The position numbers were made by a program, and so were the translations under genes. A stretch of 64,000 bases of DNA from Strigamia acuminata. Its lineage: Eukaryota. Positions 17,635-47,591 of the stretch are shown one piece after another. The stretch's first letter is position 1; every line of letters starts with the position of its first letter. The notes beneath the pieces are model-generated. The model saw only the letters and a program-made list of their open reading frames with translations, searched no databases and was not told the origin of the DNA. The stretch spans positions 16,368,001 through 16,432,000 of the forward strand of contig OX442314.1 in the NCBI GenBank assembly GCA_949358305.1, read 5' to 3'.

Positions 17635-19330
<1,696 letters not shown>

Positions 19331-20164: not shown

Positions 20165-23100
20165 CTAATTAGATTTTGAACAAAGACGCAATAATTTTGT
20201 AATTGTAACATCAATTACACTGTAAAATGACATAATAGATACACCCATAGTGAGACCAAGTGCTGATCCAATGTCAGACAAAAAAGCCTCCAACGTGTAA
20301 GACCATTTTTCAATAAACTGTTGAATGAGGTTATGCTTGAATACAAATACGAAAGAATTGAATCCTGTTTTGTAGGGCTGAAAGTAAATTTGAATATTGA
20401 AAACAGTCTCTTCGCATTTTTTGAAACAATTGCAATGCTTCATAAAGTTGGGATCCATTTTCGAGGTAATAAGTGAATACATTTCATAAACTTTTAAAAG
20501 ATCATACGAATAGCTGCACGTTGGTAGAGAAATGTTGATCATAAACGGCAATCTAATAAATAAATAATCAATTACGATAACTAATCAAATGACCATCTTG
20601 TCAACTTACTTGCAACTCAGATGCTTTAGCCACATGGATTCAATACATCGATCCAAACACAGATCGTAGACATTTGAACTCGTACATGGGTGTTTTGGAT
20701 GATTTAATCGTTGAATCTTTAACAAATCATCAAAATTATTGGAAACTAAATCAAGAAAAATCACTGGGTGCATATACTTTTGTGACATCATATATAATTA
20801 AAGTACGAGAAAATAACGGAATTTCGTAATGCGAAGAAACTTGTAGATATTGATTCGCATTAACTGAGAAAAGCTAAACAAGCAACAATAACAATTTTAT
20901 TTAGAAATAAAATGTTCATATTTACCTGGAAATTGTCTTTACATTCATTTAAAAGTCCGCTAGTAAATGTAGTAAACATATTTGTTCCACTATAAATGTG
21001 CGATTCTGCAAATTACCATATTTAAAGCCTACAGTTGAGTACGGTATACAACATGCAATAGATATTTACCTATTTGTACTTCTGTACACAGACCTAAATG
21101 TGTCTTGATAGACTTCAATGTTGCATTTGGAGAATTTCCATGCGTTCTATACTGAATAAATAGGTTTAAGAAATTATATTATTTACATTATAAAAATGTC
21201 AGTGCTGCATGTAATAAGGTATTGCTCGTGTTAATATCCCTTTCTCCTACGCAAGATCAATAAAAACGACGCGTTTGTAAAATTTTCAACTCAAGGGATA
21301 TTGCCACTACAAACACCAAATAAAATGGTTTGTTAATTCTTACCTTAAAAGGATCTACTTTTTTCGGAATTCTCCACATCTTATCAAACTTATACTTGGT
21401 AATGTTGTCAGGCCATTTTAAGTAGTCTTCAAATTTTACGTCACATGCTTGTTTACCAATTTTTTCGGCAACCTTATTGCGGATTGGAACCAAGTCTTTG
21501 GAGCATAAAATTAGACGGGGATAAAAGACGGTTTTGTTTTCAGTCATTGTAATAATATTGGCAACAGGATACGATTTATAACGTTTCACCAGTGTGTAAA
21601 TGTGATACGATGATACAGTAATGCATATTATAGTAACCATAACCGACAGTATATTTGAAATGGAAAGTGTATATTTTTTTATACTATTACTCTGGCTTTG
21701 AAATTTCTCTTCTAAAACGAAAAGAGTTTTGACTTTGATGTACAAAAACTTAAACTTTCTATATCTCGTTCCGTCGTGATTACTCGTGAATATCAACGCA
21801 AACAGTTGAAACAACGACAACGCGCAAAGATTTAAAAATAAAACGAGATTTCCACCAATTGAACATAATAAATCAATCACGTAAAATGTATATCGCTGTG
21901 TAATGTAGACAGCACTGCTTTCAGTCAGTCGGAGATCAATGGATGTATTTCGTTCTGTGATTTGATGTAGGCTTGGTTTATACTGGAATACAAGCCGTTC
22001 ACAACTTTTCAGACAATTACATTCGTCCTGCGGATTTAACCCAAAAAATGTGTTTACGGCACGTTCATACATTTGTCCATTTGCCTCAGCTGCCTGGCAG
22101 AGAGGCATGTGCAATTCCTTCGGAAAAAACGGATAACTAGAACGAACAAATAGGGGAAAAATATTATTTAAGAATTTTTCCTTAACTCTATAACAATTAA
22201 GGTGGGCACCATATTTTTCAATTGTAACCAGAAGCGTGGTAAACGAGAATTTACTGACTTTTTCTTTACCAAAAAATAACCTGAATTTTACAAATCTTCA
22301 AATATCTCCAGTCACTTTTTTCCCACTTGAGCCGGAAATGCCTTTCTGGCTTTACACGGCCGGCCACGTGTTCGTTTCTCACTTACGGAGAGGTTTTGGC
22401 CTCAGCTGGAAATGTTCTACCACACCTAGAACACATTGAAATAATATGTGATGGATTCATGATGCATAATAAATTCAAAGATCTATCATTTTTAAAATTC
22501 GAAATCTTTTCATGCAACTGTTGCTCAAACTTTATTATTGTATCAACACATTGTTTGCCCAGGAATATGCAGAGGCGGGTTTAGTAACTGTCAAAATTTC
22601 CTCAGCAAATATCATAAACTGCAACTTTAACTTTGAAACTCAAATGAACTTTGATTTTTTTGTGTTATTCCTACTTGCAATTTTTCAAACAAGAAGATGG
22701 CACTAAAACATTATAACTAAATACAGTAGGTAAAGTAATTTTTTTGGGGAGGGGAATTGGGAATTGGATGGGAATTTGGTGTTTAAAAAATAATTATGAT
22801 GTGGGAAAACCAGCGTGTGTAAAATTCAGATTTCTTTTGAGTGTAAAATCAGAAAAAAGGAAGAGATAAATAGAAAGCACCCAAATGCATGCAGGGGCAG
22901 TATTTTGTGGGGCAGAATTTTAGAGGGGCTGAACACTCAAACGGCATTTATTTATTTATTTTTAAGTTCTTAAAAGATGCCCCCTTCAATTTGGCAGCCC
23001 TGAATCACGTTGCAAAACTCAGCTTTACCGGTAGGCATACAAAAATGATCCCCTGCTTTCGAATCCAAAGTCAAAATTTAACACGAAGTCCTGGAAGGTA

Positions 23101-25390
23101 AAGCATACTTTGACAACAGCAGAATTAATGACATAAAAGCAGAGAAATTCACCACTTATGACAATTGGTAACAGGGTCATCCACCTTAGTCTTAAAAGCT
23201 TAATTCATCATTGACTCCTACCTACAGTTGTGTTCTTGCTTCAGTTTTTCGGTTAAGCATCTATTAGCACACAATCCGTATTGATGATCATCGACACACC
23301 GCTCCCTAGAATTGTTGAGCGTTTTGTACTACAAATGAATTACGATATTAACGGCTTCTTAACGTTAACTGAGCAATGATCGTATATACCTCTGTTATTT
23401 GAATTGGTACACTAACGAGCGAACCGACAGGAAGTGTCCATGTGTTTTTGTTGTTCCATAATTGTCTTGCACCCTTAAAGGTCCCCTAATTGAGAGTTTG
23501 TAGAAAGTTTTCTATCTATTTCTACTTTTCTCTTTCAGAATGTTCAAATAAGTTAGTGTGATTACGAGCTACCTACTAAAGAAATCGAGATAACGATTGG
23601 CTCAATTTCAAACGAAAATAGGTTTCGGCAACATCTGACTAGCCATTAATTAAATGGGCGGCATTCGAACAGCGTTAATTTCACAGGTGGACAATTAACG
23701 GGGTGACATCAATCAGAGCAACAGTATCCAGCTGGCTAACCAGCTTATCAGCAGCGCCCTGTCCGATTTTTTTTTGCGTTCCGTTTTGTTCATCGTTGTT
23801 TTGAATGCTCGATCGTGCTTTAGCCAGGCCTGCAGCTTACATAATCCGAGTTCTTTCAACCTCAACCTCCACCCATTCAATTGTCGTCCCTTATAATTAG
23901 CACCTGTACATTCTACCACTTTTACATAGTTCCGTTCGTTTTCTAAAATCTGTTAAACCTGTAGATTTCGTGGAAAGCAGAGCCGTCTTAACACTCTTCA
24001 GCGCCCTGGGTTTAAAAAAATCAGGCGCTCCTTGCCCCTTGTCGTAATTAAATAAAAAATCATTTGTGTAGTGTAGTGTAGTGCACTCGTATTTTTGGGG
24101 CATTCTGGCGCCCTACTTCCACCCTCCTCCAAAAGAAGTACCGGTAAGCATTTTTGTGAAAAATAAATTCAAACCAAAAGAATGTTTGAACCTAAAATGC
24201 ATTTTTGGACCTAAAGATGCATCTTTAGAAAAAAAATGCCACCCGGGGTTTTACACACTATCAACAATGTGTAGGAACAGGCCTACAAGTTCAGCTTATA
24301 TTTGAACAATCATGAAGAATCTTTGTAGGAGGTGCCTGGCAGCCTTCTCTGCCTGGCGTTCCTCTCTGCCCAGCACCCCTGGGCTGCAGCCCAGTTAGCC
24401 CAATGGTGAAGGTGGGCCTGGTGGGAAGGCCGTCATATGAGAAATAATAATATTAAAAAAAAAACTTTAAACGTAATTAAATGTTTCTACTTCCAAATAA
24501 AACTAATACTGTGCAGTAAAAAAAATATGAAATAGTGAAGAAATTATGTAAAATGTAATAACATTAAGACACTTGCCATAATTGAGCGAGTTAACGCTAA
24601 TATACCCGTAGCATAAACATCAAGTTTTAATCGGAATGAATTTTTTATGTTCGCAATCTCATCTATAAAAAAAAAATGTCAAAGTAATTTACATATTACA
24701 CACACTTTCTAAGAAGTAAAATTCACCAAGACGAAATGCAGAGCATATACCCATGGGATGATCAACTTTTTTCGTTGGTATAATATTCATGTGTTGTTTG
24801 TTTCTCTAAAAAAATCATGATTATTATATCTGGAGCTTAACAGATTCATTGAACTGATTAAAGTCAAATTAACTTACTAATACCAACTGAAAACTGGTAT
24901 TCACATTTGAAGCAGAAGTAAAATCAGAATAGTTCCAAAGAATTCTGAGATCATGCTCTCCCTTTTCGATCATTGTTTTCAAAAGATTCAAATACTCATC
25001 CGCGTACATATCCACTTGCTCTAAGCCATTAATCATCTCTGGTGTTAATTGATTACAAATAGTCAATTCAGGCTTAAATTCATTCAAGATTGTCGAGCTT
25101 TCAGAAAAGGCTACATCAACAGCAACCGGCCATGACAGAAAATAAGCAATACGCTGATACGAAAGCAAAAAGCAGCATCCAGCGCTCGCAAAAAATAACA
25201 AAAACCAAAAAAACTTCAAAATGCTTGGTGCGTTATTTTGCGCTATAAGGTCTAGTCCAGGGATAAGATTTTTTTTCGTTTCACTTAACTTGGCATCTTC
25301 GAACAATTCTCGAACTATCCCCCGAATAGCCATATTTCGTCTTCGTTTCAGTTTCTCCCAGGGATTATACATTTCCATTTTGGTCAACAT
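20165..25390 (-). CDS. DEG/ENaC (pickpocket-like) gene encoding two tandem channel subunits in one reading frame
   Basis: Unit 1: TM1 FFWFLLFFASAGCCFLLSYQRIAYFLSWP, MGICSAF, CANRC, CNCLKSC, TM2 LLCSIGGNLVLFL. Unit 2: TM1 ..YHIYTLVKRYKSYP, YPRLILCS, LGLCTEV, CLDRC, CNCFKKC, TM2 FLSDIGSALGLTMGVS. The exons I traced join in frame through GT-AG introns. Confidence 0.85.
23978..24420. mobile_element. Non-autonomous hAT-like element (443 bp) in a DEG/ENaC intron
   Basis: CAG...CTG ends with imperfect TIRs (cagagccgtcttaac / ggtgaaggtgggcctg) and an 8-bp TSD GTGGAAAG / GTGGGAAG with one mismatch. Confidence 0.65.
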
Positions 25391-25809
25391 TATAGTACAC
25401 CGATTTTAGCTCTTGAATGAATCAAGTTTCTGATGACAGTGTCGAATGATTAAAATAATGCGTTATTTTGTAACTTTGTAATCGATAAGCTAGTACATTA
25501 TTTGAAAAGTGGTATCCGCCTTCCCCATTCAGCATTCGACGGCTTTCATTCGCAATGCTTTTCTCGTGCAATTTGTTACGCCCATTGCCATTGCTTTAAA
25601 AAATAACAAATACAATTTTAAAATTTAATCAACAACACAAAGAATTGCAATAAAAATATTCAAAGTACTGGATTTAAAAACTAATTAAAAATTCATCATT
25701 TTTTTAAAAAAAAAACTTTGCTTAGAATATTCTTTTGAAAAAGTTTTCTAATCAATTTGAATTTTATCTTTGTTTAACTACAAATTCAAAAGCATTAAAT
25801 CCAAAATCA

Positions 25810-25870
25810 AAACAGTCTATTCGCATTTTTAAAAACAATTGCAATGCTTCAAAAAGTTGTGATCCAGCTT
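25810..25870 (-). pseudogene. Left part of a DEG/ENaC pseudogene fragment interrupted by the Polinton
   Basis: aaacagtctattcgcatttttaaaaacaattgcaatgcttcaaaaagttgtgatcca aligns by eye to 20401-20457 (the KHCNCFKKC exon). Confidence 0.8.
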
Positions 25871-26255
25871 AGTAGTGGGTTTGTGGGGATCCTGGGCCAG
25901 TGGTTGGTGGTGAGGGGGGGTGGGGGTGGTGAGGGTTAAGTGGGGGGAGAGATAAGGGGAGGGGGAGATAAGTGGAGGGGGAGATAACGGGAGGGGGAGA
26001 TAAGGAGAGGGGGAGATAAGGGGAGAGCTAAGTGGGGGTGACTAATTGCTTCAATCAATCAGTCTTATCATTCAATCAATGTACCCTAGGCTATTATTTG
26101 TTATTGTTTTTCTTTACTTAAGTACCTTGTTGTTGTTTTTCCCAAATTTTCAAAGGACCCTTGTTTTTCTTTACTTAAGCACCTTGTTGTTGTTTTTCCC
26201 AAATTTTCAAAGGACCCTAGGCCACTTTTAATCAAAGGAGGGATATTATTGGGTA
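25871..26255 (+). repeat. Left terminal inverted repeat of the Polinton
   Basis: Reverse complement of 40923-41308. By eye it is identical over the outer ~286 bp, with a few mismatches internally. It contains a G-rich GGGGGAGATAA array and a 57-bp direct duplication (26104-26217). Confidence 0.97.
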
Positions 26256-26354
26256 GTTATCTTAACCAATGGGAAACTAGTAATGGGTATATATACTTGC
26301 AATTCCCTACTCTCTTCTCTTCACTTCTTGCAAGTGCTAGGTTTTGTTTGCATC

Positions 26355-29300
26355 ATGGAATTTAACCACATTCAGTCTGAATTTGAAGAGTTGTTTATGG
26401 AGATTGAAGAATCTCTCTTTCCTCCTATTAACACACCTAATTCACTGCTTGATGTTGATGATGAAGAAAATGGATCCAATGATTCTCCATGTTGGATTTA
26501 CAATCATTCTCTGATTTATCCACTCTCATCGTCTACCATCATCAACCAGTCTCAACACGTGCAATCTCCAACCTGTGTCCTCCAATCTCAACCTGCATCA
26601 TTTCAATCATGCAATCCATTGACATCATGTGAGTCTCCCGTTCCTCTCTTGATTAATCATCAAATCCATAATCAAGTGGTGCAACATAATATTTGTGAAT
26701 TTGAAGAGATGCTTACGGAAATTGAAGAATCTCTATTTCCTCAAGTTAACACGCCCAATCCTCTACTGGAAGAAGAAAATGGATACAATGATTCTCCATG
26801 GATTTATAATCATTCTCCAATTTATCCACTCTCACCACCTACCATCATCAACCAGTATCAACACGTGCCATCTCCATCCTGCACCAATGCGTTTCAACAT
26901 GTGCCAACTCCAACCTGCATCAATCAATCTGAATCTGCATCATCTCAATCGTGCAATCCATCGATATCATGCGAGTCTCCAGTTCCTGTGTACCACTACC
27001 AACCAAATTTACACCAAGCAAGAACAAGCCGCATCGTCAATCCCCCATCTCCTATGACTTTAGTGCAACAAATTGGAGGTGGAGAGAAAGTACATTCGTG
27101 TGAGTACTGCAAAAAAAATTTTTCTTGTTTTTCAACTTTAAAAAGGCATCTTATTCATTCACATACTCTTGCTAAAAGCACATTCGCATGCGCAATTTGT
27201 ACAAATATTTTTTCACGCAAAGATGCCTTGCTGCGACATGTTAAAAAAATTCACAATCGCAGCAAAGAGACATTTACTTGCAATGTTTGCAAAAAGTCTT
27301 TTTCTTCAAATAATAATTTACTTAAACACATGCAAGTTCACATTCATCCTTTACCCGCCGTTCCACATCCACAACCACTACCCTGCGATGATCCTTGTGT
27401 TGACGCATTAGAGGGAAACGTCAACACGTATAAAATTCCCGGTGATGATTGTGGTGATTTAAATCATTTTTTCATTCAACACCACACTCGAGTGAAACGG
27501 ATCTTAAACTTCCAATTGATTAAAAAGAAAGCGGTAAAATATTATATCGCCGTTAATATACATTTCACTCGAACATCACAGAGTGGTGATACGGAAACCG
27601 TTGCATGTTTTCGAAGCATTTGCTATATTGCGCTCGTTGAATCGGATCTCGAGGACCAATTATTGGAGGCGTACGAGAAAATTAAACGTTCTTGCGCCGA
27701 ATTTCAACGAGATGGTAGTGGTTGGGTATTTGAAGCGGTGGTAGAGATGCATGTGAATATTGGTAGATATCGCCCATTGGCTGGAAGATCTTACATCGCA
27801 CTCCCCAAATTTTTAGCAGACAAAAAAGCAATAATAAATGTACAAAATCAAGATTCTTTGTGTTTTCTCTGGAGTGTTTTAGCTGCTCTGCATCCTGCAC
27901 CTTCCCACCCTGAACGTGTTTCACATTATACCAAGTACCGAAACACTTTAGATTTAACCGGACTTTCATTCCCAATGACTCTTCAACAAATCCCCAAGTT
28001 TGAAACCATGAATTCTATTAGTGTTCATGTGTTTGGTTTCGAAAAAGAAGTGTTTCCCCTATACATTAGCAAATTGGAACATAAAACCCAAATAAATTTG
28101 TTACTTTTTGCTAATGATCAAACCCAACATTATTGTTGGATTAAAAATTTAAATAAACTGTTACATTCCTTAACACATCACAATGAATTAGCTCACTATT
28201 GTAAATATTGTCTGCATAGATGTTCGTCAGAACGGATACTAAAAGATCACTTGGAGTACTGCTCAACCCATGGACTACAAAAAGTTAAATACCCCACCGA
28301 TGAAACAAAATGGATGCACTTTACTGATTTCCATAAACAATTTAAAGTCCCATTTGTAATATATGCGGATTTCGAGTCACTGCTCGTTAAAAATGTTGAA
28401 AAAGATGAGACAAGCAAAGTGCAAAAAGTGTCCAAGCACGTACCATCGGGTTATGCTTATGCCGTTATCAATACGGAAGGTAAACTGCACCAACCTCCAT
28501 CGGTATATCGAGGTGAAAATGCAGTTGATCATTTTCTTGATCATATTACTAAATTGGAAGTAGAGTTGGGAAAGCTTATGGCTTTAAATCTTCCAATGGA
28601 TTTATCAAATGAAGAAAAATTGTTTATGGAAAGTGCTACATCTTGTCACATTTGTAATAAGACATTTTTAAAAAATGAAAAGAAAGTAAGGGACCATGAT
28701 CATGCTACTGGCAAGTTCCGTGGCCCTGCTCATAATTTTTGTAATCTGATGTATCGCAGAACATCTAAACAAATTCCCGTTGTGTTTCATAACTTAAAAA
28801 ATTATGATTCACATTTGTTAATGCAGGGAATTGGAAAGTATAAAGATCGTGAAATAAGCTGTATTCCAACCAACATGCAACGATATATTACTTTTTCACT
28901 CGGAAATCTTCGATTTCTCGATAGTCTGCAATTTATGAATGCATCTTTAGAATCATTGGTTGCTAATTTATTCAAAAGTGATCCAAACCAATTCCGAATA
29001 ATGAATCAACATTTCAAACCTGATCAAATCGGTTTGTTATTACGGAAAGGTATTTTTCCATATGAGTACATGGACTCTTGGATCAAATTCAACGAAGTCC
29101 AACTTCCTCCCATATCTGCATTTTACAGTACTCTAAGTGCGCAAAGTGTATCCGAATCTGACTATATTCATGCAAAGAAAGTGTGGGATAAATTCAATAT
29201 CCTAAATCTCGGTGTTTATCAAGACCTTTATGTTTTGACTGACGTTTTGCTGCTAGCTGACGTCTTTGAAAATTTTCGATCAATTTGTTTAGAGACTTAT

Positions 29301-30779
29301 AAATTGGATTGTTGCAATTATTTCACAACACCCGGTCTCTCATGGGGGGCATGTCTGAAACTAACAGATGTTAAATTAGAACTGTTAACGGATCCGCTTA
29401 TGCATGTCTTTATTGAAAATGGTATTCGCGGTGGTATATCAATGATTAGCCATCGATTTGCTAAAGCCAATCACAAAGATATAGATGGTTATAAAAAGGA
29501 CCTTCCATCCAATCACATCATCTATCTCGATGCGAATAACTTGTACGGCTGGGCAATGAACCAATATTTACCAACTCATAATTTCAAATGGATACCGCCC
29601 ACCGATGATTTTGATGTGTTAAGCATTAGTGAAACCGGCACAAAGGGATATATTTTGGAGGTAGATTTAGAATATCCCAAAGAACTCCATGATTCCCATA
29701 ACGATTATCCTCTTGCTCCTGAACGACTAACAGTAACTGAAAACATGTTATCACCCTACAGTCTCGAACACCTTATCCTACTAGAACAAAAACATCACCC
29801 ATCTCCCAAATTAGTTCCTAACCTTGCTAACAAAACAAAATACATTATCCACTACCAAAACCTCCAATTGTATTTGAAATTGGGAATGAAAGTCACGAAA
29901 ATTCATAAAATTCTGGAATTTGAACAATCTGATTGGCTTGCAAAGTACATTGGCTTAAATACTGAGTTGCGAAAACAAGCAACCAATAGTTTTCAAAAGG
30001 ACTTCTTCAAATTGATGAATAATAGTGTTTTTGGGAAGTCGCTCGAATCCGTCAGGAAACGTGTTGATGTGAGGTTGGTGCAAAATCCAGAGCGAGTGAC
30101 TAAATTATTAAATTCACCAACTTTTCACGAGTTCAAGATTTTCAATGAAGATCTTGTAGGTGTACATTTAAAGAAAAGAAATATCCTATTAAATAGACCC
30201 ATATACGTGGGCTTTTGCATTCTAGAACTTAGCAAAGTCCTTATGTATGATTTTCATTATAATCATATCAAAAAAACATATGGGAACAAAGCCAAGTTGC
30301 TTTTTACTGATACGGATAGTTTAACGTATAATATCGAAACAGATGATATTTATGCAGACATGAAAAAAGATTTAGAAAAATTCGACACTTCAGATTATCC
30401 TTCCACACACTCCCTATACAGCACAAAGAATAAAAAGGTAATTGGAAAGTTTAAAGACGAAATGTCCGGGAAATGCATACAGGAATTTCTCGGACTTCGA
30501 TGTAAAATGTATTCGTTTAAAACAAAAGATCAAGAAAAAAAGACAGCAAAAGGTGTACCTCGAAGTGTGCGAAATCAACTTCGCCACAAAGACTACAAAG
30601 AGTGTCTATTCAACAAAATAGAAAACGCACGTTCATCAAATCAAATTCGCTCTTTCGATCACGAATTATATACAATTTTGCAAAAGAAAATTGCTTTGTC
30701 TGCTGGAGATGATAAAAGGTACATTTTGAGTGATGGTGTAACGACTCTAGCTCATGGGCATTACAATATTATTTTGTAA
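26355..30779 (+). CDS. polB: Protein-primed family B DNA polymerase with an N-terminal duplicated acidic region, three C2H2 fingers and an endonuclease VII-like insert
   Basis: Exo motifs YADFES, FHNLKNYDSH, YVLTDV; Pol motifs YLDANNLYGWAM, KLMNNSVFGK, FTDTDSL; EndoVII-like CHIC..DHDHATGKFRGPAHNFCN. The ORF opens at 26283, but a TATATA at ~26288 favours ATG 26355. Confidence 0.97.
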   Translation: MEFNHIQSEFEELFMEIEESLFPPINTPNSLLDVDDEENGSNDSPCWIYNHSLIYPLSSSTIINQSQHVQSPTCVLQSQPASFQSCNPLTSCESPVPLLINHQIHNQVVQHNICEFEEMLTEIEESLFPQVNTPNPLLEEENGYNDSPWIYNHSPIYPLSPPTIINQYQHVPSPSCTNAFQHVPTPTCINQSESASSQSCNPSISCESPVPVYHYQPNLHQARTSRIVNPPSPMTLVQQIGGGEKVHSCEYCKKNFSCFSTLKRHLIHSHTLAKSTFACAICTNIFSRKDALLRHVKKIHNRSKETFTCNVCKKSFSSNNNLLKHMQVHIHPLPAVPHPQPLPCDDPCVDALEGNVNTYKIPGDDCGDLNHFFIQHHTRVKRILNFQLIKKKAVKYYIAVNIHFTRTSQSGDTETVACFRSICYIALVESDLEDQLLEAYEKIKRSCAEFQRDGSGWVFEAVVEMHVNIGRYRPLAGRSYIALPKFLADKKAIINVQNQDSLCFLWSVLAALHPAPSHPERVSHYTKYRNTLDLTGLSFPMTLQQIPKFETMNSISVHVFGFEKEVFPLYISKLEHKTQINLLLFANDQTQHYCWIKNLNKLLHSLTHHNELAHYCKYCLHRCSSERILKDHLEYCSTHGLQKVKYPTDETKWMHFTDFHKQFKVPFVIYADFESLLVKNVEKDETSKVQKVSKHVPSGYAYAVINTEGKLHQPPSVYRGENAVDHFLDHITKLEVELGKLMALNLPMDLSNEEKLFMESATSCHICNKTFLKNEKKVRDHDHATGKFRGPAHNFCNLMYRRTSKQIPVVFHNLKNYDSHLLMQGIGKYKDREISCIPTNMQRYITFSLGNLRFLDSLQFMNASLESLVANLFKSDPNQFRIMNQHFKPDQIGLLLRKGIFPYEYMDSWIKFNEVQLPPISAFYSTLSAQSVSESDYIHAKKVWDKFNILNLGVYQDLYVLTDVLLLADVFENFRSICLETYKLDCCNYFTTPGLSWGACLKLTDVKLELLTDPLMHVFIENGIRGGISMISHRFAKANHKDIDGYKKDLPSNHIIYLDANNLYGWAMNQYLPTHNFKWIPPTDDFDVLSISETGTKGYILEVDLEYPKELHDSHNDYPLAPERLTVTENMLSPYSLEHLILLEQKHHPSPKLVPNLANKTKYIIHYQNLQLYLKLGMKVTKIHKILEFEQSDWLAKYIGLNTELRKQATNSFQKDFFKLMNNSVFGKSLESVRKRVDVRLVQNPERVTKLLNSPTFHEFKIFNEDLVGVHLKKRNILLNRPIYVGFCILELSKVLMYDFHYNHIKKTYGNKAKLLFTDTDSLTYNIETDDIYADMKKDLEKFDTSDYPSTHSLYSTKNKKVIGKFKDEMSGKCIQEFLGLRCKMYSFKTKDQEKKTAKGVPRSVRNQLRHKDYKECLFNKIENARSSNQIRSFDHELYTILQKKIALSAGDDKRYILSDGVTTLAHGHYNIIL

Positions 30780-30962
30780 AAAGTGTTATTTATTTATTTA
30801 TTTATTTTGTAAACAAAACTGTTACATATTTTTATTATTATTATATCATTATCTTATCATGTAATTTATTTTGTAAATGAAATTATTATTATTATTATTA
30901 TTATTATTTTTATAAAATAAAACCATTATTATATATATTATCGTGTCATTCTTTCACAAACC

Positions 30963-31349
30963 ATGGACAGAGCAGGATTACAGAAAAACCTGATGCTCTT
31001 ATTTGAAAATCATAAATTATGGATTACGACTGGAAGTTTCTCTGTTGTTGGATGTTGTATCGTTATTCTACAAATCATGATTCTGATGTACTCTCCTCCA
31101 ACCTTAATCCAACCAACTGTGGATGTAGTGAAAATGTTGCCTGTATCCAATGGATGCAATTCCACTTTTGATCTAGGAAATGGAAAACAACTAAATATTT
31201 GCAAACGTGGAGATGATGTAATATTTGATATCAGACAGTTTAGCAGAGCTGGTCCATCCATCAAAGGAATTAATTTAAATTGGTATCAATGGATTAGATT
31301 AACTCGAGCAATCTCTTTTCTCCATTCGAATGTAACTATTGTTAAATAA
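30963..31349 (+). CDS. PC4-like ssDNA-binding domain protein with an N-terminal hydrophobic segment
   Basis: FDLGNGKQLNI..VIFDIRQF..PSIKGINLNWYQW resembles the PC4 (Sub1) signature; it is preceded by FSVVGCCIVILQIMILMY. Confidence 0.7.
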   Translation: MDRAGLQKNLMLLFENHKLWITTGSFSVVGCCIVILQIMILMYSPPTLIQPTVDVVKMLPVSNGCNSTFDLGNGKQLNICKRGDDVIFDIRQFSRAGPSIKGINLNWYQWIRLTRAISFLHSNVTIVK

Positions 31350-31401
31350 ACAAGTGCATATGCAATGATCGAAATATATCTTTATTATTTGTGTATACAA
31401 A

Positions 31402-32496
31402 TTATAATGGTGGGTTGTCTCGTAAGTCATCAGCGGGAATCCAGGAATTAAATTCATCTCCATAACCCATCCACTTTACAAAATATAATTTATTCGCACC
31501 TTTGCCTTTAGACTTTAATACTGTTTCTACAGCATACTCCGCATCCTTGGGTTTATTAATTTTCTGCAACTCAAATTCATAAAATGTACCGAGTAAAGGT
31601 TCATCATTGTAATCTTTAAGCATATAGACAACTTCTGGTGGTCGGATTAATCGATTGGCAATATAATAAATTTGATGCGAATAGCTTCCCCTGTATCCCT
31701 TTCGGAAAACCACTTTTGATTTTGATATTCTAACACCATCACCAATATTAAACTTAAATTTTTTATGTCTTTTATTTATTGTATCACCATATAAGTGGTA
31801 AAACACTGCCGGTTCTTTCTCTTTCGTAACATCAACAGGTTTCATTCCTAATGTTCGATGAACGCTATGATTATATGAATCAATAAATGTTTGCAGTTGG
31901 TCAATATATCGATGTCTGCCGGTATATGTGAAATAAGTCCACATTTTCTGCTTTATGGTCCGATTTAATCTTTCACAAAGTGAACATTTAATATCATCAT
32001 TTTCACTTGTAAAATGTTTGATGTTATTTTTTAGTAAGAATTCCTGAAAAGCTTTATTTAAGTATTCTTTTCCCTTATCGGTCTGTAGAAAAAGGGGTTT
32101 AGTCTTGGCACGTTTTAGAATTGTTTCAAAAGCTTTTATAATATGTTGCGCAGACTTTGTTGGTAAAGCTTCAATATACGCATATCGTGAAAATACATCA
32201 ATGACAGTCATTAAATATCTATTTCCATCATTTTCCTTTGCTATGTTTCCAACTTCAACCAAATCCGATTGCCATTGGTAATTAATAGATGGTACAATAG
32301 TCTTAGAGCGTTGAAACTTGTATCGAACTGGTTTATGTAAGGTATATGAGTCTAGTCCTTGTAACCAATCTTGAATCTCCTTTCTGGTAACTTGTACCCC
32401 CCGATTACGTGCAGCATGGAACAATTTATCTCGACTACTAAATCCGGCAGGATTTCTTGGATTAAAGTAGATATCTTTCAATTGTTGCTCTGCCAT
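31402..32496 (-). CDS. Retroviral-like (rve) DDE integrase with C-terminal chromodomain
   Basis: WQSDLV, VIDVFSRY, LQTDKGKEY, CERLNRTIK; chromodomain YAVETVL..YFVKWMGYGDEFNSWIPADDL. Confidence 0.97.
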   Translation of the reverse strand: MAEQQLKDIYFNPRNPAGFSSRDKLFHAARNRGVQVTRKEIQDWLQGLDSYTLHKPVRYKFQRSKTIVPSINYQWQSDLVEVGNIAKENDGNRYLMTVIDVFSRYAYIEALPTKSAQHIIKAFETILKRAKTKPLFLQTDKGKEYLNKAFQEFLLKNNIKHFTSENDDIKCSLCERLNRTIKQKMWTYFTYTGRHRYIDQLQTFIDSYNHSVHRTLGMKPVDVTKEKEPAVFYHLYGDTINKRHKKFKFNIGDGVRISKSKVVFRKGYRGSYSHQIYYIANRLIRPPEVVYMLKDYNDEPLLGTFYEFELQKINKPKDAEYAVETVLKSKGKGANKLYFVKWMGYGDEFNSWIPADDLRDNPPL

Positions 32497-32544
32497 ATGT
32501 TTTTCTAACTTTGTTCTATGCTCCTAGTTATACTGTTTATTTCT

Positions 32545-33429
32545 TTATTTTTTTTTCTTTTTTTGTGAACCGGAACTTGGTGTTTTATATTTGAATAAAC
32601 TCTCGTCTTGATCTCGTTGAAATCTTAAAGATTTGTTTGGTGTTCCGTAATGTGCCCAAGTGTTCTCTAAGTCTGACAGCTCTTGATCTTGATCTGATAG
32701 TGTTTGATTATTGATGATGGAGTCATTTCCACTCAATGACTCTCTATGAATGTCCCTAGTAATTGTGGGAGTTGAAGTGCTCATCGGTCTAATTAATTCC
32801 TTTCTTAAATTCTTGTTTATAATGTATTCTTTTGGTACATTTGAATCAATCAAAATTTTAATATACTCTGACTGACCAATCGGAATTACATTTTGCTTCG
32901 GGCGGTTTCTTATGGTATAGTTTATAAGATCAGCTTTGGTTGTATTTGGAATTTTTACTCCATCTATAATCATTTCCGATAGATTGCTCCATTTCAACCT
33001 TGGATTCAAATTCATAACTTCCATTAACGCAATAGCTTGTTTCTTTTGATCTTTTGACATTTTATTCAACATTATTTTATCCAATGGTTGAAGAACAAAT
33101 GGCGATTGAGATGTGGATAAGTGCGAAACAATTGGTGGTGGTGATTGAGGTGGAGATGCGGATTGAGTTGGAGGTGATATAGTAACAGTTTTTGGTGCAT
33201 TTAATTGTTTAATTAGCTTTTGTTTAAAGTTTCCAAATTGCGATTGAAGTGTCGATATAAGTTTAGCTTTCATTTCATCATTCAAGTTTGCATCATTGAA
33301 AATTTCCTCTATTGACGATTCAATCTTTTGCAATTTTTGATATTGCGGATCAATATCATCATAGTTCTTTTTCGAATATTGTAAAGATGACATCATTTCC
33401 TGCGGTACTAAAACCATTTTCCTAGCCAT
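32545..33429 (-). CDS. Polinton protein of unknown function (coiled-coil N-terminus, Pro/Ser linker, basic tail)
   Basis: 294-aa intronless ORF starting MARKMVLVP; LKWSNLSEMIIDGVKIPNT-type block; lies between the core-protein and integrase genes; overlaps the upstream stop codon. Confidence 0.75.
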   Translation of the reverse strand: MARKMVLVPQEMMSSLQYSKKNYDDIDPQYQKLQKIESSIEEIFNDANLNDEMKAKLISTLQSQFGNFKQKLIKQLNAPKTVTISPPTQSASPPQSPPPIVSHLSTSQSPFVLQPLDKIMLNKMSKDQKKQAIALMEVMNLNPRLKWSNLSEMIIDGVKIPNTTKADLINYTIRNRPKQNVIPIGQSEYIKILIDSNVPKEYIINKNLRKELIRPMSTSTPTITRDIHRESLSGNDSIINNQTLSDQDQELSDLENTWAHYGTPNKSLRFQRDQDESLFKYKTPSSGSQKKKKK

Positions 33430-33757
33430 TTTGTTTACTAATTAGTTTACCTACTAATGCTCCAATAATTGGGGCGAGTAGTTGCGGTAAAAATCCACCA
33501 GTTTGAATGACCAAGTTCCGTCTTTGTTTGAATGAAGATGTAGGAGTGGCCAATTTTCTTAACAACCTTCTCTTTCGATAAAGTGATTGTTTCTGATTTG
33601 CTCCTAACTTAATTGTACCTTTTATAATGTTTAAACAAATTTCACAGATGGTTTTACAGAAATCATCGTTAGAATGTTTGAGAAAATCCTTGATTTGTCT
33701 CTTATTTAAATCGGGAATGGCCCGGAGCACATTGGCGTGACGTCTTACTCGTTTCAT
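33422..33757 (-). CDS. Small basic Polinton virion/core protein with an amphipathic C-terminal peptide
   Basis: Arg/Lys-rich; ICEICLNIIKG; QTGG followed by FLPQLLAPIIGALVGKLIS. Confidence 0.8.
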   Translation of the reverse strand: MKRVRRHANVLRAIPDLNKRQIKDFLKHSNDDFCKTICEICLNIIKGTIKLGANQKQSLYRKRRLLRKLATPTSSFKQRRNLVIQTGGFLPQLLAPIIGALVGKLISKQNG

Positions 33758-33766
33758 TGGTGGAAT

Positions 33767-34366
33767 CTATATGTAAACTATAGTATATTCATCCGGAAAT
33801 ATATTAGTCTTCACTCTTTGATCTTGGGGTGTATCCGGTTTCAAATCAATTAATAAATACCCAAAACTTTGCGCTGTTGCATCGTTAAATGCTGATATGA
33901 AAAATTTACCTCGCTGTGGGAACATTTGACTCCCTACTTTTGCGATTTGATTCATATCCCTTGGATTTCGAAAAAGGATTAAATAGTGACTATTTAAAGA
34001 TAAAGTTCGTTGATATTTGCTTTGATGAAATATGTTTTGGCATAAATAAAATACACTAGTGCTCGTATGGTGCGAATATTTAGTCCACAATAACCCAATC
34101 TCTTGATTTAAATTTTCCATTTGATCGTCAATGATGAAAAGCTTTCTCGTTGATGAATCCAAAGTCTTTAAATTGGGTAATCCTTCGTGGAACTGCACAT
34201 TGGGAAATTCGATATACCACTGTTGCCATATTGAATAGTACCAGCAAATATCTTGTGGGGGTGGATCAATCATTTTACTCGCATTTCGGATAATTTTCTT
34301 ACATATCTCCGTTTTGCCCGTACCCGAACTTCCAGAAATAATAGCAGTAAATGGATGATGAAACAT
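33767..34366 (-). CDS. A32/FtsK-like genome packaging ATPase
   Basis: Walker A GSSGTGKT, Walker B LFIIDDQ, SHH, LSLNSHYLILFRNPRD, FGYLLIDL. Confidence 0.95.
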   Translation of the reverse strand: MFHHPFTAIISGSSGTGKTEICKKIIRNASKMIDPPPQDICWYYSIWQQWYIEFPNVQFHEGLPNLKTLDSSTRKLFIIDDQMENLNQEIGLLWTKYSHHTSTSVFYLCQNIFHQSKYQRTLSLNSHYLILFRNPRDMNQIAKVGSQMFPQRGKFFISAFNDATAQSFGYLLIDLKPDTPQDQRVKTNIFPDEYTIVYI

Positions 34367-34419
34367 TGTTCATATAAGAGGTGATGTCACCTCAATGATG
34401 CAATCAGAAGTGAGCAGGC

Positions 34420-35550
34420 ATGGATCCGGAACAGAGTTTCTATGTGAGTCTTCCATCAAATAGCAGCTTAGATTATTACCCGAATAATACATTGACGGAA
34501 TTTCATACGCAATTACCATCATATATTAATTTAGATGAAAATTGGGAAGTGGGTCTGGTTGGATTCCTTTATCCAAGAAGCTGGAGTACTGCTCTATTGC
34601 CCCGAGGTGCCGATTTTCGAATACTGAAGAATGAAGTCAATGCAATCAAATTTCCACCATTCAAATTTGTGGATGCATCCCTACCGCAGGATAAGCTAAT
34701 ATCCGAGTTTCTTAACTTTTTAAATAATAATTTAACATCTCCAACCAAGAAAGATGAGAAAGTTAAAGATCTTGACAAAGCATTGCAAAAATTAGGAATT
34801 AAATTTCACTGGAATTCCACTCGTTTAAGATTTGAAATAATAATTATGCCTAAGTTTCAAGTCATGATCCCGCAGAGGCTGGCATATGTGTTAGGTTTTG
34901 TGAAAGATGAAGATGATGATTTTTACGCTGATGAATCCAAGACGGCTCGTGATTCTCCACGTCTCACACCAAATCTTATCAATGATAAAAATTGGAATTT
35001 ATCAATTGAAAAGGAGACTGATGGTAAACAGAAACAAAGCTTGAAACCTGGAAATTATTCGGGACCTGATCAATTAGTAGATGCTTTAAATCTTAAAGCA
35101 CTCGTAGTTATTGATAAAGCACCATTTAGTTTTAATATATCATCAAAGAAAATTGAGATTAACTTGCCAATTAACACCAAGTTGGTTCTTGATAAAGCCT
35201 TGGCATCAACTCTCGGTTTTAATGATTTGCGTGTAATTACAAAAACAACAGAAGCTTTTCATAAAATGGATGAACAAGTTGGACTATATCATATGTACTT
35301 GTATTGCAATCTAATACAACCAAACATTGTTGGGGATACTTTAGCGCCACTGTTAAGAATAATACAGATTCAAGGAAAAGAGCGAGGACAATACATCTCC
35401 CAAACTTTTGAAAATCCACATTATAAACCGCTGGCAAAATTGCAATTTGAATCCATACAAGTGCTTATAAGGGGTGACACCGGAGAAAAAGTACCATTCG
35501 AGTTTGGACGTGTCGTTGCAACGTTACACTTCAGGAAGAGATTGGATTGA
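34420..35550 (+). CDS. Minor capsid (penton-like, PX) protein
   Basis: FYVSLPSNSS..YPNNTLTEF..WEVGL N-terminus and MYLYCNLIQPNIVGDTLAPLLR..PHYKPL..LHFRKR C-terminus, typical of Polinton minor capsid proteins. Confidence 0.88.
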   Translation: MDPEQSFYVSLPSNSSLDYYPNNTLTEFHTQLPSYINLDENWEVGLVGFLYPRSWSTALLPRGADFRILKNEVNAIKFPPFKFVDASLPQDKLISEFLNFLNNNLTSPTKKDEKVKDLDKALQKLGIKFHWNSTRLRFEIIIMPKFQVMIPQRLAYVLGFVKDEDDDFYADESKTARDSPRLTPNLINDKNWNLSIEKETDGKQKQSLKPGNYSGPDQLVDALNLKALVVIDKAPFSFNISSKKIEINLPINTKLVLDKALASTLGFNDLRVITKTTEAFHKMDEQVGLYHMYLYCNLIQPNIVGDTLAPLLRIIQIQGKERGQYISQTFENPHYKPLAKLQFESIQVLIRGDTGEKVPFEFGRVVATLHFRKRLD

Positions 35551-35554
35551 CAAG

Positions 35555-36037
35555 ATGAGATTTCACTATGAACTAAACCCTCAAATCTGCATGGATAGAT
35601 ATTGCTCAAATCATGCGCAAATAGGTGGAGCAGATCTTCCTATATTTGTAGGATCTCGCTATCAACAAGGACATGGTTTGGGTTCACTTATAAGTGACGC
35701 ATTTCGAATTGTAAAGCCTTTTGTGAGAAGTGGAGCGTTGGATGCAGCAACGTATGGTTTGAAGAGAGGATTAGACGTAATTTCCGATATGCGTGTAAAC
35801 AAGAGAAAATTTGGAAATGCATTTAAAGATCAGGTTGTTCGAACCAAATCGGATTTTTTAAAAAAGATTGGTGTACAGAAAGGAGGCAAACAAAAGCGGA
35901 TGGATGGTAAACAAAAGAAAAGACGTGTAACCAAACAAAAGAATCAGTCTAAGAGACGAACTCGACCAAAGAAGAACGTGCGTAGGAAGTCCTGCAAAAG
36001 GAAAACTTCACTTCTTGGACCTGACATATTTGATTAG
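35555..36037 (+). CDS. Basic core/virion protein (PZ-like) with putative protease sites
   Basis: QIGG, F.GSRYQQGHGLGSL, QKGG, very Lys/Arg-rich tail ending DIFD; lies between the penton and major capsid genes. Confidence 0.8.
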   Translation: MRFHYELNPQICMDRYCSNHAQIGGADLPIFVGSRYQQGHGLGSLISDAFRIVKPFVRSGALDAATYGLKRGLDVISDMRVNKRKFGNAFKDQVVRTKSDFLKKIGVQKGGKQKRMDGKQKKRRVTKQKNQSKRRTRPKKNVRRKSCKRKTSLLGPDIFD

Positions 36038-36039
36038 CC

Positions 36040-41308: not shown

Positions 41309-41732
41309 CAGCTTCGAGATGAAGGCTGAATACATTTCATAAACTCCTAAGAGACCATACGAATAGTTACATGTTGGTAGAGATACGTTGGTCATAAATG
41401 AGAATCTAATAAATAAATCATCAATCAAACACATCGTGGACATTTGGATTTGTACATGGGTTTTCTGGATCATTTATACGATAATCTTTAACAAATCATC
41501 AAAATTATTGGAAATTAAATCAAGAAAAATCACTGAGTGCTTATACTTTTGTGTGACCTCCAAACGGAATTGAGTAATGCAGCTATTGATTCGCATTAAC
41601 CGAAAAAAGCTAAATAAACAACAATAACAATTTATTTCTGTTACATTCACATTTTCTTGTGCCTGAAAATTGTCTCCACATCGATTCAAAAGTGATTGAA
41701 GTAAAATTATAGTAAAAATATTTGCTCCACTC
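41309..41732 (-). pseudogene. Right part of the DEG/ENaC pseudogene fragment interrupted by the Polinton
   Basis: Aligns by eye with 20455-20990 (e.g. gaatacatttcataaact, atctttaacaaatcatcaaaattattggaaa), with internal deletions. Confidence 0.8.
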
Positions 41733-44594: not shown

Positions 44595-47591
44595 ATGGTC
44601 AAAGCAAGAAAAATTATCAAGCAACTCTTGCACAGCCACGAGAAAAATAATTGGACATCTACAACCGGTTTAAGACAGGTGTCTAATCCTAATTATCCAA
44701 TTTGGTTGCGTGGCGTTTGGTTGATGATTTTCATCACGAGTTTAGCTCTATGCTCGTATCAAACGTACAATAGAGTAATGCATTACCGATCGGGTCCAAT
44801 TGCAGTCGATGTTCGATTCGTTGAAATCACCAGATTTCCTTCATTCACGGTTTGTTCGCAAGATACTCAAGAAATGATAAACTACAAGCAAAAACATTTT
44901 CTCGACGACAACATATTTTCCACATTTACTTGCATGAATCAACTTTTGTATGTGATGGATCAAGTCCAGAATGTAAATGTAGATGAGTTGTGGAAACTAA
45001 CCAATACGGCTAACATCGTCTCATCGGCAGTATTGAAACGGGTAAGATACAATCGTTTTCTATTTTAAAAATTTTGCATTCGAGATTTCTCGTTTAAAAT
45101 TGCTGTGTGGTAAATCCAACAAAAGTTCGCCAAGTAAACCCAGCTCATACTATTTTTTTAGTTAAATAATATCACAACAGTTACTCCAAAGCAAGTAATT
45201 GCACCAATGGGAATATGTTCAGCATTTCATTTAGGTATGGTTAACTATCTTTTTTCAAATTAATAGTTACGGTACAATTAATTTTTAATACGTTGTAAAA
45301 CCCAGATGGTGAAATGAAACATCCTACTTCAACTCAATTTATTCTGAAATTGGCAAAACTACCAAACAGCTGTGAAACTTCAATAATTTCAGTAAGTAAC
45401 TTAAGTTAGTTTATAAAATTAAATTAAATTATGTTCTTTTTAGGGCAGTGCACATGAACCTGGAGAACATTCACCAGACATTCGCAATCTATTTGGATTT
45501 TCTCCATTTCAAATCATCTACATTACTCTAGTCTACAAACAGGTATATTTCCTACATTTAAATTATGACCATAAACTAAAATCGTCATTTTACTTTTATT
45601 TTCCAGTACATCTTTTTAAATTCTACAAAAAATCCCTGTGTGGATCATACGACCTACAACGAATGCCAGTTAAAATGCTTATTGAAAATGTACACCAAAC
45701 ATCAATTTCCATGCAGGTATTTATTTTAAAAAATCAAATAATTAAATCCAACACCACTAAGTTTTCTCTAGGTTCCCATTCATGCCAAGTAAATTAAATT
45801 TAGATTTATGCACCACAAAAAAAGACGTTACCAAAGAATTGTACGCCAAAGCAACAAACACCTTCATCAGCACAAATCCAACACAAGATTGCAACTGCCT
45901 TCGACGTTGCAACAGAATCGTTTTCGAATTCTCTCTAACCAATAACGACATGCATCAAAACGAAACAACATTCAACTTGATTCTTAGAAACAAACAACTT
46001 TTATCAGTAGAAGAGCGGCTTGCCTTCGATTTCATATCCCTACTCGGAGACTTTGGCGGCAATTTAGGCTTATATTTCGGATTATCCATTCTCTCTGCAG
46101 TTTACTACGTGCAACAATACATAGAATGCCTCGATGCCCGAGCTAAAGTCAACAGTCTGCGGAGAAAACATCCAAAAGCCTACCGTTTTCTCGCCCACAT
46201 TTTCAACAAAGAAATGAAGAAAAGAGAGAAAAATATCTTTTCCAAATACACATTTCAAAGACACCCTCATTGCCTCGTTTCACTTTTGCTATTGGTTGTC
46301 ACAATTTATTTACTAACGATCCGCGTATTATTCTACATTTCTGAACCAACCCAAGTAGTGATCAACGTTGTCGAAAACTCGACCATGAATTTCCCATCAC
46401 TGACACTCTGCGGTGAAAGCAGGAGCTATTCCAAACTCAGAAAAGCATATGCAAAAAAAGACGCAACAAAGCACTACTGCGAAGCCAACTTTTGGGATTT
46501 CTTTGACAAAAATCTAACCGCTCAAGAGATATGGGCCTTCACAGATATCACTGACGTAATTTCTAACAGAACCGAAGAATTTGCAAAGGTATATCACAGC
46601 CGTCTGCAACTTATTTTTTTTTACTAATAAAACACCCACCATTTCCACACAACAGGCGAATGTTGGTATTTTATCACTAAAAGCAGAGAAACAAACAGCG
46701 ACCAATACCCCAACAGGCCGCTGTTCACATTTCAAAATAGGTAAATAATTTCTAACAAAAAATAAATAAATAAATCGATCATCACATTAGGTGAACACAC
46801 GTTTGCTGGAACCGCTACACTGTTTGCCATTTTGTTGCAACAAAAACAGTGTCAACCAGAAGCCTTATCGTACATTACGGAAAACGATATGGAGCCAAAC
46901 ATTATTTACCGCACTCCTGTAATCGTCGGTGGAAATGCCGCTATCCTTCTTACAGCCAAAAAGGTATTACTTTACACACCCCAATAATCTAAAAAAAACC
47001 AAAGATATTTAAATATTTAGCCTAATAAGTCTAATTTCCTAGGTGACTTACCACAAAAGCTACAATAACCCATGCGTAAGTCCTAAAAGCGCTTTAAAAT
47101 GTGAAACTCGGTGCCTACAAAGAAAACTGAACGAGAAACTGCAATGCAGGTAAGCCTACCAAAATTAATTCTATATAAAAAAAATACAGAAGATAATTGT
47201 CTTCAGACTCCCATACATGAAAAACATTCGCTATCCAATGTGCACCTCTTCAAAATCAGCGCTATTAGCCCAACTTACATTTAAAGATGTTTTTCTAGAC
47301 AAAAAATCATGTAATTGTACTAAATCTTGCACCACCGTTATTTACGACACAAACTGGTATTTCGAACCCCATGATCATTGGTTAATGACAATGTACGTAA
47401 CGATTTTTATTCACAACACAGTCGAATATATCAACGAGCTACCTCATTACACACATGTCCAATTAATGTGCGATATTGGCTCCATCTTAAGTCTCACTCT
47501 GGGTTTATGCATTCCAGTTATATTTCTCACTTTGCAGAATATTACATTTTCCACTTGCAGTAAAATACTTGCAAAAAAACACTCGAAATAA
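44595..47591 (+). CDS. Second DEG/ENaC gene encoding two tandem channel subunits in one reading frame
   Basis: Unit 1: WTSTTGL, TM1 VWLMIFITSLALCSYQ, FPSFTVCS, MGICSAF, CNCLRRC, LLGDFGGNLGLYFGLS. Unit 2: TM1, FPSLTLCG, TGRCSHF, CETRC, CNCTKSC, LMCDIGSILSLTLGLC. Confidence 0.87.

What the first reader, a model, noticed from the sequence alone, without database searches (positions are those of the whole stretch)
20165..25390. Natural two-subunit concatemer DEG/ENaC channel gene (copy 1)
Seen: TM2 of unit 1 (LLCSIGGNLVLFL) runs without a stop, inside one exon (ORF 21257-22114), into TM1 and YPRLILCS of a second complete unit. Both halves have compact ectodomains and a similar exon pattern, which points to internal gene duplication. 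Known: DEG/ENaC channels are trimers of 2-TM subunits. Inference: a 4-TM tandem dimer would need a third subunit, two chains, or cleavage, so the architecture is unusual and may be undescribed.
Basis: partly seen in the sequence, partly recalled or inferred. Interest (0 to 1): 0.8.

Follow-up and report, generated by a model that had tools for sequence, protein, structure and literature searches.

The report
Fused two-subunit DEG/ENaC channel gene
This gene, likely from a soil centipede, joins two sodium-channel (DEG/ENaC) subunits in one unbroken reading frame, a layout shared by a family of related predicted genes; the predicted double protein would likely fill two of the three seats of a sensory ion channel and borrow the third from a separate gene.

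Summary
Confirmed and extended. An 11-exon model (minus strand, 25390-20165) gives an intact 808-aa protein with two complete DEG/ENaC units. TM2 of unit A, a 40-aa basic linker and TM1 of unit B lie in one exon (22136-21344), with no stop, Met, strong donor or poly(A) signal between them. DNA contigs of two runs span it unchanged. A paralogue at 44595-47591 has the same junction; its Strigamia maritima orthologue (T1J963) keeps the linker gap-free at 65% identity. Of the 150 best library hits, 32 chain several units, at least 21 from S. maritima. First units and second units form separate clades, so this is one old fusion followed by family expansion, not a private duplication. Closest solved relatives are centipede BRTNaC1 and PDPNaC1 (single-unit homotrimers). 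Crustaceans carry separately evolved three-unit chains. Likely mechanism (about 0.5): a 2+1 trimer with an asymmetric pore. No RNA, protein or functional evidence was available, and copy 1's unit A has an odd pore helix.

The parts
20165..25390 (-). Copy 1: 11-exon double DEG/ENaC gene model, 808 aa
   Evidence: no internal stop, canonical splice sites; two full units
24878..25390 (-). Exon 1: N-terminus, TM1 of unit A (aa 57-75), start of ectodomain A
   Evidence: (ASC E 2.6e-10)
24727..24805 (-). Exon 2 (unit A)
   Evidence: phase-1 intron at the same profile column in all four units
24577..24662 (-). Exon 3 (unit A), ends at a GC donor; same 86-nt length as exon 3 of copy 2
   Evidence: inferred without RNA
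23390..23485 (-). Exon 4 (unit A); least certain exon, chosen by phase, length and match to copy 2
   Evidence: (weak profile hit)
23222..23328 (-). Exon 5 (unit A thumb cysteines)
   Evidence: E 2e-8
21344..22136 (-). Exon 6, the junction exon: end of ectodomain A, TM2-A, linker, TM1-B, start of ectodomain B
21791..21880 (-). TM2 of unit A (aa 380-409); deviant pore positions: S, V, N where most relatives have D, G, G
21671..21790 (-). Predicted cytosolic linker, 40 aa, 9 basic and 3 acidic residues, no Met, one predicted helix
   Evidence: low-confidence model
21587..21670 (-). TM1 of unit B (aa 450-477)
20610..21151 (-). Exons 7-10 of unit B (21151-21070, 21005-20926, 20873-20778, 20716-20610)
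20165..20552 (-). Exon 11: end of ectodomain B, TM2-B with intact G-x-S, stop codon
   Evidence: ASC E 4.7e-9; BRTNaC1 E 1.6e-14
44595..47591 (+). Copy 2: 10-exon double DEG/ENaC paralogue, 793 aa, junction exon 45772-46588; 74% identical to S. maritima T1J963
41309..41731 (-). Decayed partial duplicate of copy 1's last exons, continuing at 25870-25809 on the far side of a Polinton insertion
   Evidence: 73-91% nucleotide identity; stops and frameshifts

Best explanation
The gene holds two complete DEG/ENaC units in one reading frame, and is likely translated as a single four-helix chain whose units A and B would take two neighbouring seats of a three-subunit cation channel, the third seat likely being filled by a separately encoded single subunit. 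Shown: the continuous frame, the intra-exon junction, the paralogue, the conserved linker, the position-specific clades, and a DEG/ENaC fold predicted for both halves of a family member. Inferred: both termini and the linker are cytosolic, so topology is preserved; fusion fixes an A-B order; B-type pore helices differ systematically from A-type ones, giving an asymmetric pore; by kinship to BRTNaC1 and PDPNaC1 the channel is probably a sensory (proton, heat or chemical) receptor of centipede neurons. Odds: about 0.88 that the chain is made fused, about 0.5 for the whole 2+1 mechanism.
For: Junction in one exon in 2 of 2 window genes, with no Met in copy 1's linker, no GT[AG]AG donor and no AATAAA in either junction exon. 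Linker of copy 2 versus T1J963: 48 of 48 residues aligned without gaps, 65% identical, against 71% for TM1-B and 73% for ectodomain B. 32 of the 150 best hits are multi-unit; 21 of them are S. maritima models. Anchor-to-anchor spacing across the join is 102-130 aa in 22 of 22 A-B sequences measured. B units form one clade (14 rows, 100/98), A units another (13 rows, 88/91), apart from 16 singles. At the position equal to PDPNaC1 G375, A has Gly in 15 of 15 and B has Ser or Asn in 9 of 10 with that column; singles have Gly in 55 of 60. AlphaFold of family member T1JD34: pLDDT 67.7, pTM 0.64; B half matches BRTNaC1 at Z 20.6 (rmsd 4.5, 324 aligned), A half matches FaNaC at Z 12.9 (rmsd 7.1, 316 aligned). 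Crustacean three-unit chains (P0093 in 4.4-4.6 kb contigs, P0039, P0043) group by position for units 1 and 2 (98 each), which fits linked units sharing one trimer. Engineered ASIC1a trimer concatemers work (PMC8871370, passages).
Against: No transcript, protein or current was seen for any centipede double. The S. maritima entries are automatic gene models, many partial, and I could not see whether their junctions lie within exons. No partner subunit is identified and the window holds none. An engineered two-subunit ASIC1a fusion gave currents on its own, with cleavage or incomplete synthesis products (PMC4529235, passages), so a double may not need a partner gene. Copy 1 has no close library counterpart (best 26% identity; nothing) and its TM2-A is the only one of 15 A units lacking the Asp and the G-x-S glycine, so this copy may conduct differently or not at all. 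One single-annotated model, P0038, nests among B units and starts within what is linker in its sister P0027: a split model or a real free B subunit. The 43-row tree was chosen after seeing the 115-row tree, in which B was not resolved as one clade (7 changes) and A had support 80.
Confidence: 0.5

Rival explanations
1. The chain is made whole but channels are built from doubles only: two chains with one unit left outside the trimer, or three chains forming two tethered pores (A2B plus AB2).
For: Needs no partner gene; the engineered ASIC1a dimer was functional alone (PMC4529235 passages); doubles are numerous among the best hits; the 40-aa linker is predicted with low confidence (pLDDT under 50), so it may be flexible.
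Against: Wasteful in the two-chain form. Crustacean chains stop at three units, which suggests that linked units share one pore. Single-unit relatives exist in centipedes. Not tested directly.
Confidence: 0.25
2. The chain is a polyprotein: the cytosolic linker is cut, releasing free A and B subunits in equal amounts that assemble as ordinary heterotrimers.
For: Linkers are rich in basic residues; engineered ASIC fusions showed monomer-sized products.
Against: No conserved motif in 22 linkers; basic residues are expected on the cytosolic side of TM helices, and secretory-pathway convertases do not reach a cytosolic loop (established knowledge, no call). Most B units, including both window genes, lack the N-terminal motif seen before TM1 in singles and A units.
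Confidence: 0.1
3. Two separate or dead genes: the open spacer is accidental, transcripts stop or start between the units, or copy 1 is an unexpressed relic; database doubles are annotation merges.
For: No RNA seen. Merged models do occur in S. maritima (P0012 joins ankyrin, ASC and WD40 parts), and P0002/P0004/P0005/P0015 chain near-identical units in a way that could be merges. Copy 1's pore helix A is deviant.
Against: About 3% chance per gene, seen in two 26%-identical paralogues and a second species; gap-free conserved linker; merges would not sort units by position; copy 1 keeps 808 open codons and 14 Cys per unit while its recent partial duplicate has decayed.
Confidence: 0.1
4. Two doubles form a pseudo-tetrameric pore, as tandem two-pore K+ channels do.
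For: Simple arithmetic; one paper argues for ASIC1a tetramers at the cell surface (PMC4529235 passages).
Against: The closest solved relatives are deposited with three chains per entry and PDPNaC1 is described as a homotrimer; the halves keep the same fold.
Confidence: 0.04

Closest known systems
BRTNaC1 (Scolopendra heat receptor; PDB 8YMR/8YMW/8YMX; PMC9974506)
   Same: Best solved match for unit B by sequence (27% over 373 aa; E 1.6e-14 for the last exon) and by fold of a family member (Z 20.6); compact ectodomain; same broad clade in the tree.
   Different: One unit, 431 aa, two TM helices, three chains per entry. The window gene has two units per chain and no shown stimulus.
PDPNaC1 (Scolopendra proton-dissociation channel; PDB 9JF7; PMC12714832)
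   Same: Top PDB hit of copy 2's junction exon (E 9.7e-9) and of the fold search; also lacks the HG motif.
   Different: 421-aa homotrimer. Its selectivity-setting Gly378 is Val in copy 1 unit A and Ser in 5 of 10 B units.
Uncharacterised Strigamia maritima double-ASC models (T1J963, T1JD34, T1ITL7, T1IPM9 and others)
   Same: Same A-linker-B layout; T1J963 is the 74%-identical orthologue of copy 2; T1IPM9 is nearest to both halves of copy 1 in one tree (90/85 and 85/67, unstarred).
   Different: Database predictions with no description found; none is close to copy 1 (22-26% identity).
Engineered ASIC1a concatemers (PMC8871370, PMC4529235)
   Same: Head-to-tail subunits in one chain that still form channels.
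   Different: Artificial, identical subunits with native tails; here two long-diverged units with position-specific pore residues.
Heterotrimeric ENaC and tandem-repeat channels (K2P, TPC, Nav/Cav); comparison recalled, not from a call
   Same: Fixed order of unlike subunits around one pore; subunit fusion as an evolutionary route.
   Different: ENaC subunits are separate genes; the tandem channels are four-fold, so two or four repeats close the ring, whereas two units cannot close a three-fold ring.

Membership tests
DEG/ENaC (Pfam ASC PF00858), per unit | ASC domain above the curated cut-off | tested here: met
   Exon 1 40.4 bits, junction frame 39.2 bits in 2 stretches, last exon 36.2 bits; cut-off 23.6.
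DEG/ENaC, per unit | Two TM helices around a cysteine-rich ectodomain | tested here: met
   Hydrophobic peaks at aa 57, 391, 450 and (weaker, 1.52) 777; 14 Cys in each half.
DEG/ENaC, per unit | DEG/ENaC fold | tested here: met
   Tested on family member T1JD34, not on the spliced window protein: Foldseek E 4.8e-17 to PDPNaC1; both halves align to DEG/ENaC chains.
Canonical DEG/ENaC subunit | One unit (2 TM) per polypeptide | tested here: not met
   Two units and four TM helices in one frame; so filed as a variant, not as a canonical subunit.
Canonical DEG/ENaC subunit | G-x-S motif in TM2 | tested here: inconclusive
   Present in copy 1 unit B and copy 2 unit A; G-x-C in copy 2 unit B as in BRTNaC1; absent in copy 1 unit A (Asn for Gly).
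Canonical DEG/ENaC subunit | Pre-TM1 HG motif | tested here: not met
   Pro-Gly in copy 1 unit A, Thr-Gly in copy 2 unit A, nothing alignable in their B units. PDPNaC1 also lacks it and conducts, so this is not universal.
DEG/ENaC | Trimeric assembly | not testable with these tools
   Double plus single is about 1200 aa, above the 1000-residue limit of the complex predictor; no job sent.
DEG/ENaC | Voltage-independent cation current, amiloride block | not testable with these tools
   Needs electrophysiology.
Myriapod BRTNaC1/PDPNaC1-like group | Groups with BRTNaC1 in a tree | tested here: inconclusive
   A, B and BRTNaC1 (P0040) share a 38-row clade at 98/95; order inside it is open and source organisms of most singles were not looked up.

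The most novel reading that the evidence does not exclude
Arthropods have at least twice evolved natural DEG/ENaC concatemers. Soil centipedes expanded a family of obligate two-thirds channels (fixed A-B pair plus an exchangeable third subunit, a combinatorial sensory receptor code), and crustaceans built complete single-chain trimers, the three-fold counterpart of the four-repeat Nav/Cav channels, each with position-specialised pore helices.
Probability: 0.45. Interest if true: 0.88.

Novelty: new variant of a known kind. Interest (0 to 1): 0.76.

Why it matters
Every solved DEG/ENaC seen in my PDB searches is built from one-unit chains, and subunit order in heteromers is usually studied with artificial concatemers. 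A natural, old, expanded family of fused pairs shows how a three-fold channel evolves fixed asymmetry, and gives ready constructs to test what each seat contributes to gating and selectivity. It would add a large unstudied candidate sensory receptor family in a centipede lineage whose sequenced member is blind. It also warns that surveys which filter DEG/ENaCs by length or treat double hits as merges would discard real genes.

Tried and rejected
No whole genome is held for this window. No RNA holder listed, so nothing on expression. Contigs do not cover about 24480-25580 (exons 1-3) in either run; the tool filters records, so the hole proves nothing. Word-indexed homologue searches were insensitive: copy 1 junction exon 0 hits among 576 candidates, family alignment 1 hit among 7988. 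The protein atlas did not complete (six tries), so no language-model look-alikes. The first careful tree with the mixture model returned nothing; all trees use LG+G4, which is more prone to long-branch joins. The fold of copy 1's junction exon alone is low-confidence (pLDDT 59.8, pTM 0.36) and is used only for helix boundaries. No complex prediction was sent: the informative assembly exceeds the size cap and trimmed ectodomains would pass by likeness to solved trimers. Rejected: a third unit beside either gene; the upstream fragment as a third unit (it is a decayed copy of unit B's own 3' end); a recent gene-specific duplication; an assembly artefact at the junction. Earlier scan notes: 5 look-ups gave only notes on separate single-unit genes.
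Full report
Observation. The minus strand from 25390 to 20165 carries an 11-exon reading frame of 808 codons with no internal stop; all ten introns end in AG, nine begin GT and one GC. The model was built by hand from splice signals, phase and comparison with the paralogue, without RNA; exons 3-4 are the least certain. The junction does not depend on them. Exon 6 (22136-21344) runs from the thumb cysteines of unit A through TM2-A (aa 380-409), a 40-aa linker and TM1-B (aa 450-477) into ectodomain B. Pfam ASC matches that frame in two stretches, and matches exon 1 and exon 11 separately. A profile of related units finds two full units, aa 22-441 and 446-807, and no further unit in the window. 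The junction exon has no GT[AG]AG donor and no AATAAA, and the first Met after TM2-A lies inside TM1-B. One contig from each of two runs of one study covers 20739 to about 24000 without a difference; these runs may include the source sample, so this guards against an assembly error only.

More than chance. 731 of 7752 non-coding 40-codon stretches of the window are stop-free, about 3% with the frame requirement. A second gene at 44595-47591 (+) gives 793 aa with the same intra-exon junction, 30% identical over that exon. Its junction exon hits Strigamia maritima T1J963 at 76% over the full length; over the whole model identity is 74%. The linker aligns gap-free, 31 of 48 identical, close to the level of TM1-B and ectodomain B. 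The organism is therefore likely a relative of S. maritima (inference from this orthologue).

A family. A profile of the junction region found 504 proteins at E up to 0.001; I examined the best 150. Of these, 32 chain two or three units (where 34 of 152 includes the two window models). Sources: 21 S. maritima, 2 Halocaridina rubra, 4 unnamed, 5 not looked up. The spacing from the TM2 glycine to the proline after the next TM1 is 102-130 aa in all 22 A-B type sequences measured (three further ones were not measured), 112 and 113 in the window genes. One unnamed 241-aa junction-spanning protein, P0022, was called on a 1154-nt contig.

History. A quick tree of 115 of 191 units (multi-unit pieces of 150-520 aa, singles of 330-520 aa) grouped 15 of 17 first units together (SH-aLRT 80) and left second units unresolved. 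For a careful tree I then chose 43 rows, leaving out the young array P0002/P0004/P0005/P0015 multi-unit rows, the crustacean chains, several short or gappy rows, long-branch singles, and three single-annotated models that nest among B units (P0032, P0038, P0049). There B is one clade (14 rows, 100/98) and A another (13 rows, 88/91). Of the three left-out models, P0032 and P0049 begin with a piece of an upstream unit and look like mis-predicted doubles; P0038 starts within what is linker in its sister and may be a split model or a free B subunit. On 20 rows the AU test rejects the halves of copy 1 (p 0.005) and of copy 2 (p 0.001) as sisters; A+B as one clade is unsupported (31/14). So the join is old and was inherited through whole-gene duplications. 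The shared intron pattern shows common ancestry of the units but cannot tell internal duplication from fusion of neighbours.

Anatomy. AlphaFold on the full-length family member T1JD34 with a 23-row alignment gave pLDDT 67.7 and pTM 0.64, four long membrane-region helices and a low-confidence linker helix. A pTM above 0.5 for two equal halves hints at a preferred relative placement, but I could not inspect coordinates. Top fold matches are PDPNaC1 and BRTNaC1; the B half aligns to BRTNaC1 at Z 20.6 (rmsd 4.5, 324 residues) and the A half to FaNaC at Z 12.9 (rmsd 7.1, 316 residues). A low-confidence model of copy 1's own junction exon shows helix, linker helix, helix in the same order. Pore helices differ by position: at the PDPNaC1 G375 position A has Gly in 15 of 15, B has Ser or Asn in 9 of the 10 (of 18) rows that reach it; at G378, which sets selectivity in PDPNaC1, 5 of 10 B units have Ser. 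Copy 1's unit A is the family outlier, with Ser, Val and Asn at the D372, G378 and G382 positions, and no library protein is closer than 26% to copy 1. Evidence for function is thus stronger for the family and for copy 2 than for copy 1.

Mechanism. With an even number of helices per unit, the linker and both termini should be cytosolic, as in engineered concatemers (inference). Solved relatives have three chains per entry, so two units cannot close the ring. I favour a 2+1 trimer with a separately encoded subunit (0.5), then channels of doubles only (0.25), cleavage (0.1), no fused product (0.1) and a tetramer (0.04). Support for linked units sharing a pore comes from outside the window: three-unit chains of 1244-1289 aa in Halocaridina models and in P0093, which has three 99%-identical full-length members on contigs of 4.4-4.6 kb. 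Their units 1 and 2 group by position (98 each), unit 3 less firmly, all outside the myriapod clade, which points to a separate origin. Against a required partner, an engineered ASIC1a dimer gave currents alone, with smaller products on blots. A sensory role is inferred only from kinship to the antennal channels BRTNaC1 and PDPNaC1.

Literature. Ten full-text searches listed no paper on natural multi-unit DEG/ENaCs. Seen: PMC12714832 abstract, passages and sections 10 and 13; passages of PMC9974506, PMC5203786, PMC8438182, PMC7067487, PMC7510291, PMC8871370, PMC4529235; term look-ups in PMC10148893 and PMC9822975 with no relevant passage; and no mention of ENaC or pickpocket in the main text of the S. 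maritima genome paper PMC4244043. No supplements were read. Those of PMC4244043, and Vizueta et al. 2020, cited in PMC8438182 for S. maritima PPK sequences and not listed by my searches, may bear on novelty. The library lacks most subscription journals. The scan's own notes held nothing on this layout.

Verdict. A real, conserved two-unit DEG/ENaC gene and a member of an apparently undescribed expanded family; a new variant of a known kind. Interest 0.76. Expression and assembly are untested.

Noticed in passing
P0093 (with P0152, P0153), P0039, P0043; outside the window: Three-unit, six-TM DEG/ENaC proteins: two Halocaridina rubra models and an unnamed 1268-aa protein on three contigs of 4.4-4.6 kb. 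Units sort by position, suggesting a conserved natural single-chain trimer. Worth its own study.
   Followed up: partly
window 25871-41308: A Polinton/Maverick element of 15.4 kb: about 350-nt terminal inverted repeats 99% alike, 6-bp target duplication, long ORFs including a 1515-aa polymerase-like and an integrase-like one (labels from recalled motifs, not from a scan). It sits inside the decayed DEG/ENaC fragment. One contig of run X2 leaves the window sequence at 25870, a weak hint of an empty-site allele.
   Followed up: partly
window 41309-41731 and 25809-25870 (minus): Decayed partial duplicate of copy 1's 3' exons, 73-91% identical, upstream of copy 1 and split by the Polinton.
   Followed up: yes
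P0002, P0004, P0005, P0015 (S. maritima T1IZL2, T1IU28, T1ITG7, T1IL99): A separate young group in which closely similar units are chained two or three to a model; a second centipede concatemer lineage or merged tandem genes.
   Followed up: partly
P0103 and P0124 (unnamed, 1029 and 970 aa): Chains related to the crustacean triples whose middle unit seems to lack its front half; topology unclear.
   Followed up: no
P0038 (410 aa): Single-annotated B-type unit; a candidate free third subunit or a split model.
   Followed up: partly
window 23930-24480: High-copy repeat in intron 3 of copy 1, with summed contig depth 40 to over 300 times the gene's.
   Followed up: no
window 47694-48539 (minus): Intronless 281-aa ORF resembling the triphosphatase part of an mRNA capping enzyme, with His-Asp-x-x-Gly where an active-site Cys is expected; possibly a retrocopy (identification recalled, untested).
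   Followed up: no
window 3826-7727, 653-1516, 18390-18650: Neighbours look like a Rel/NF-kB gene, a phospholipase D3-like gene and a CDKL-like kinase (labels recalled from motifs). No evident link to the channel genes.
   Followed up: no
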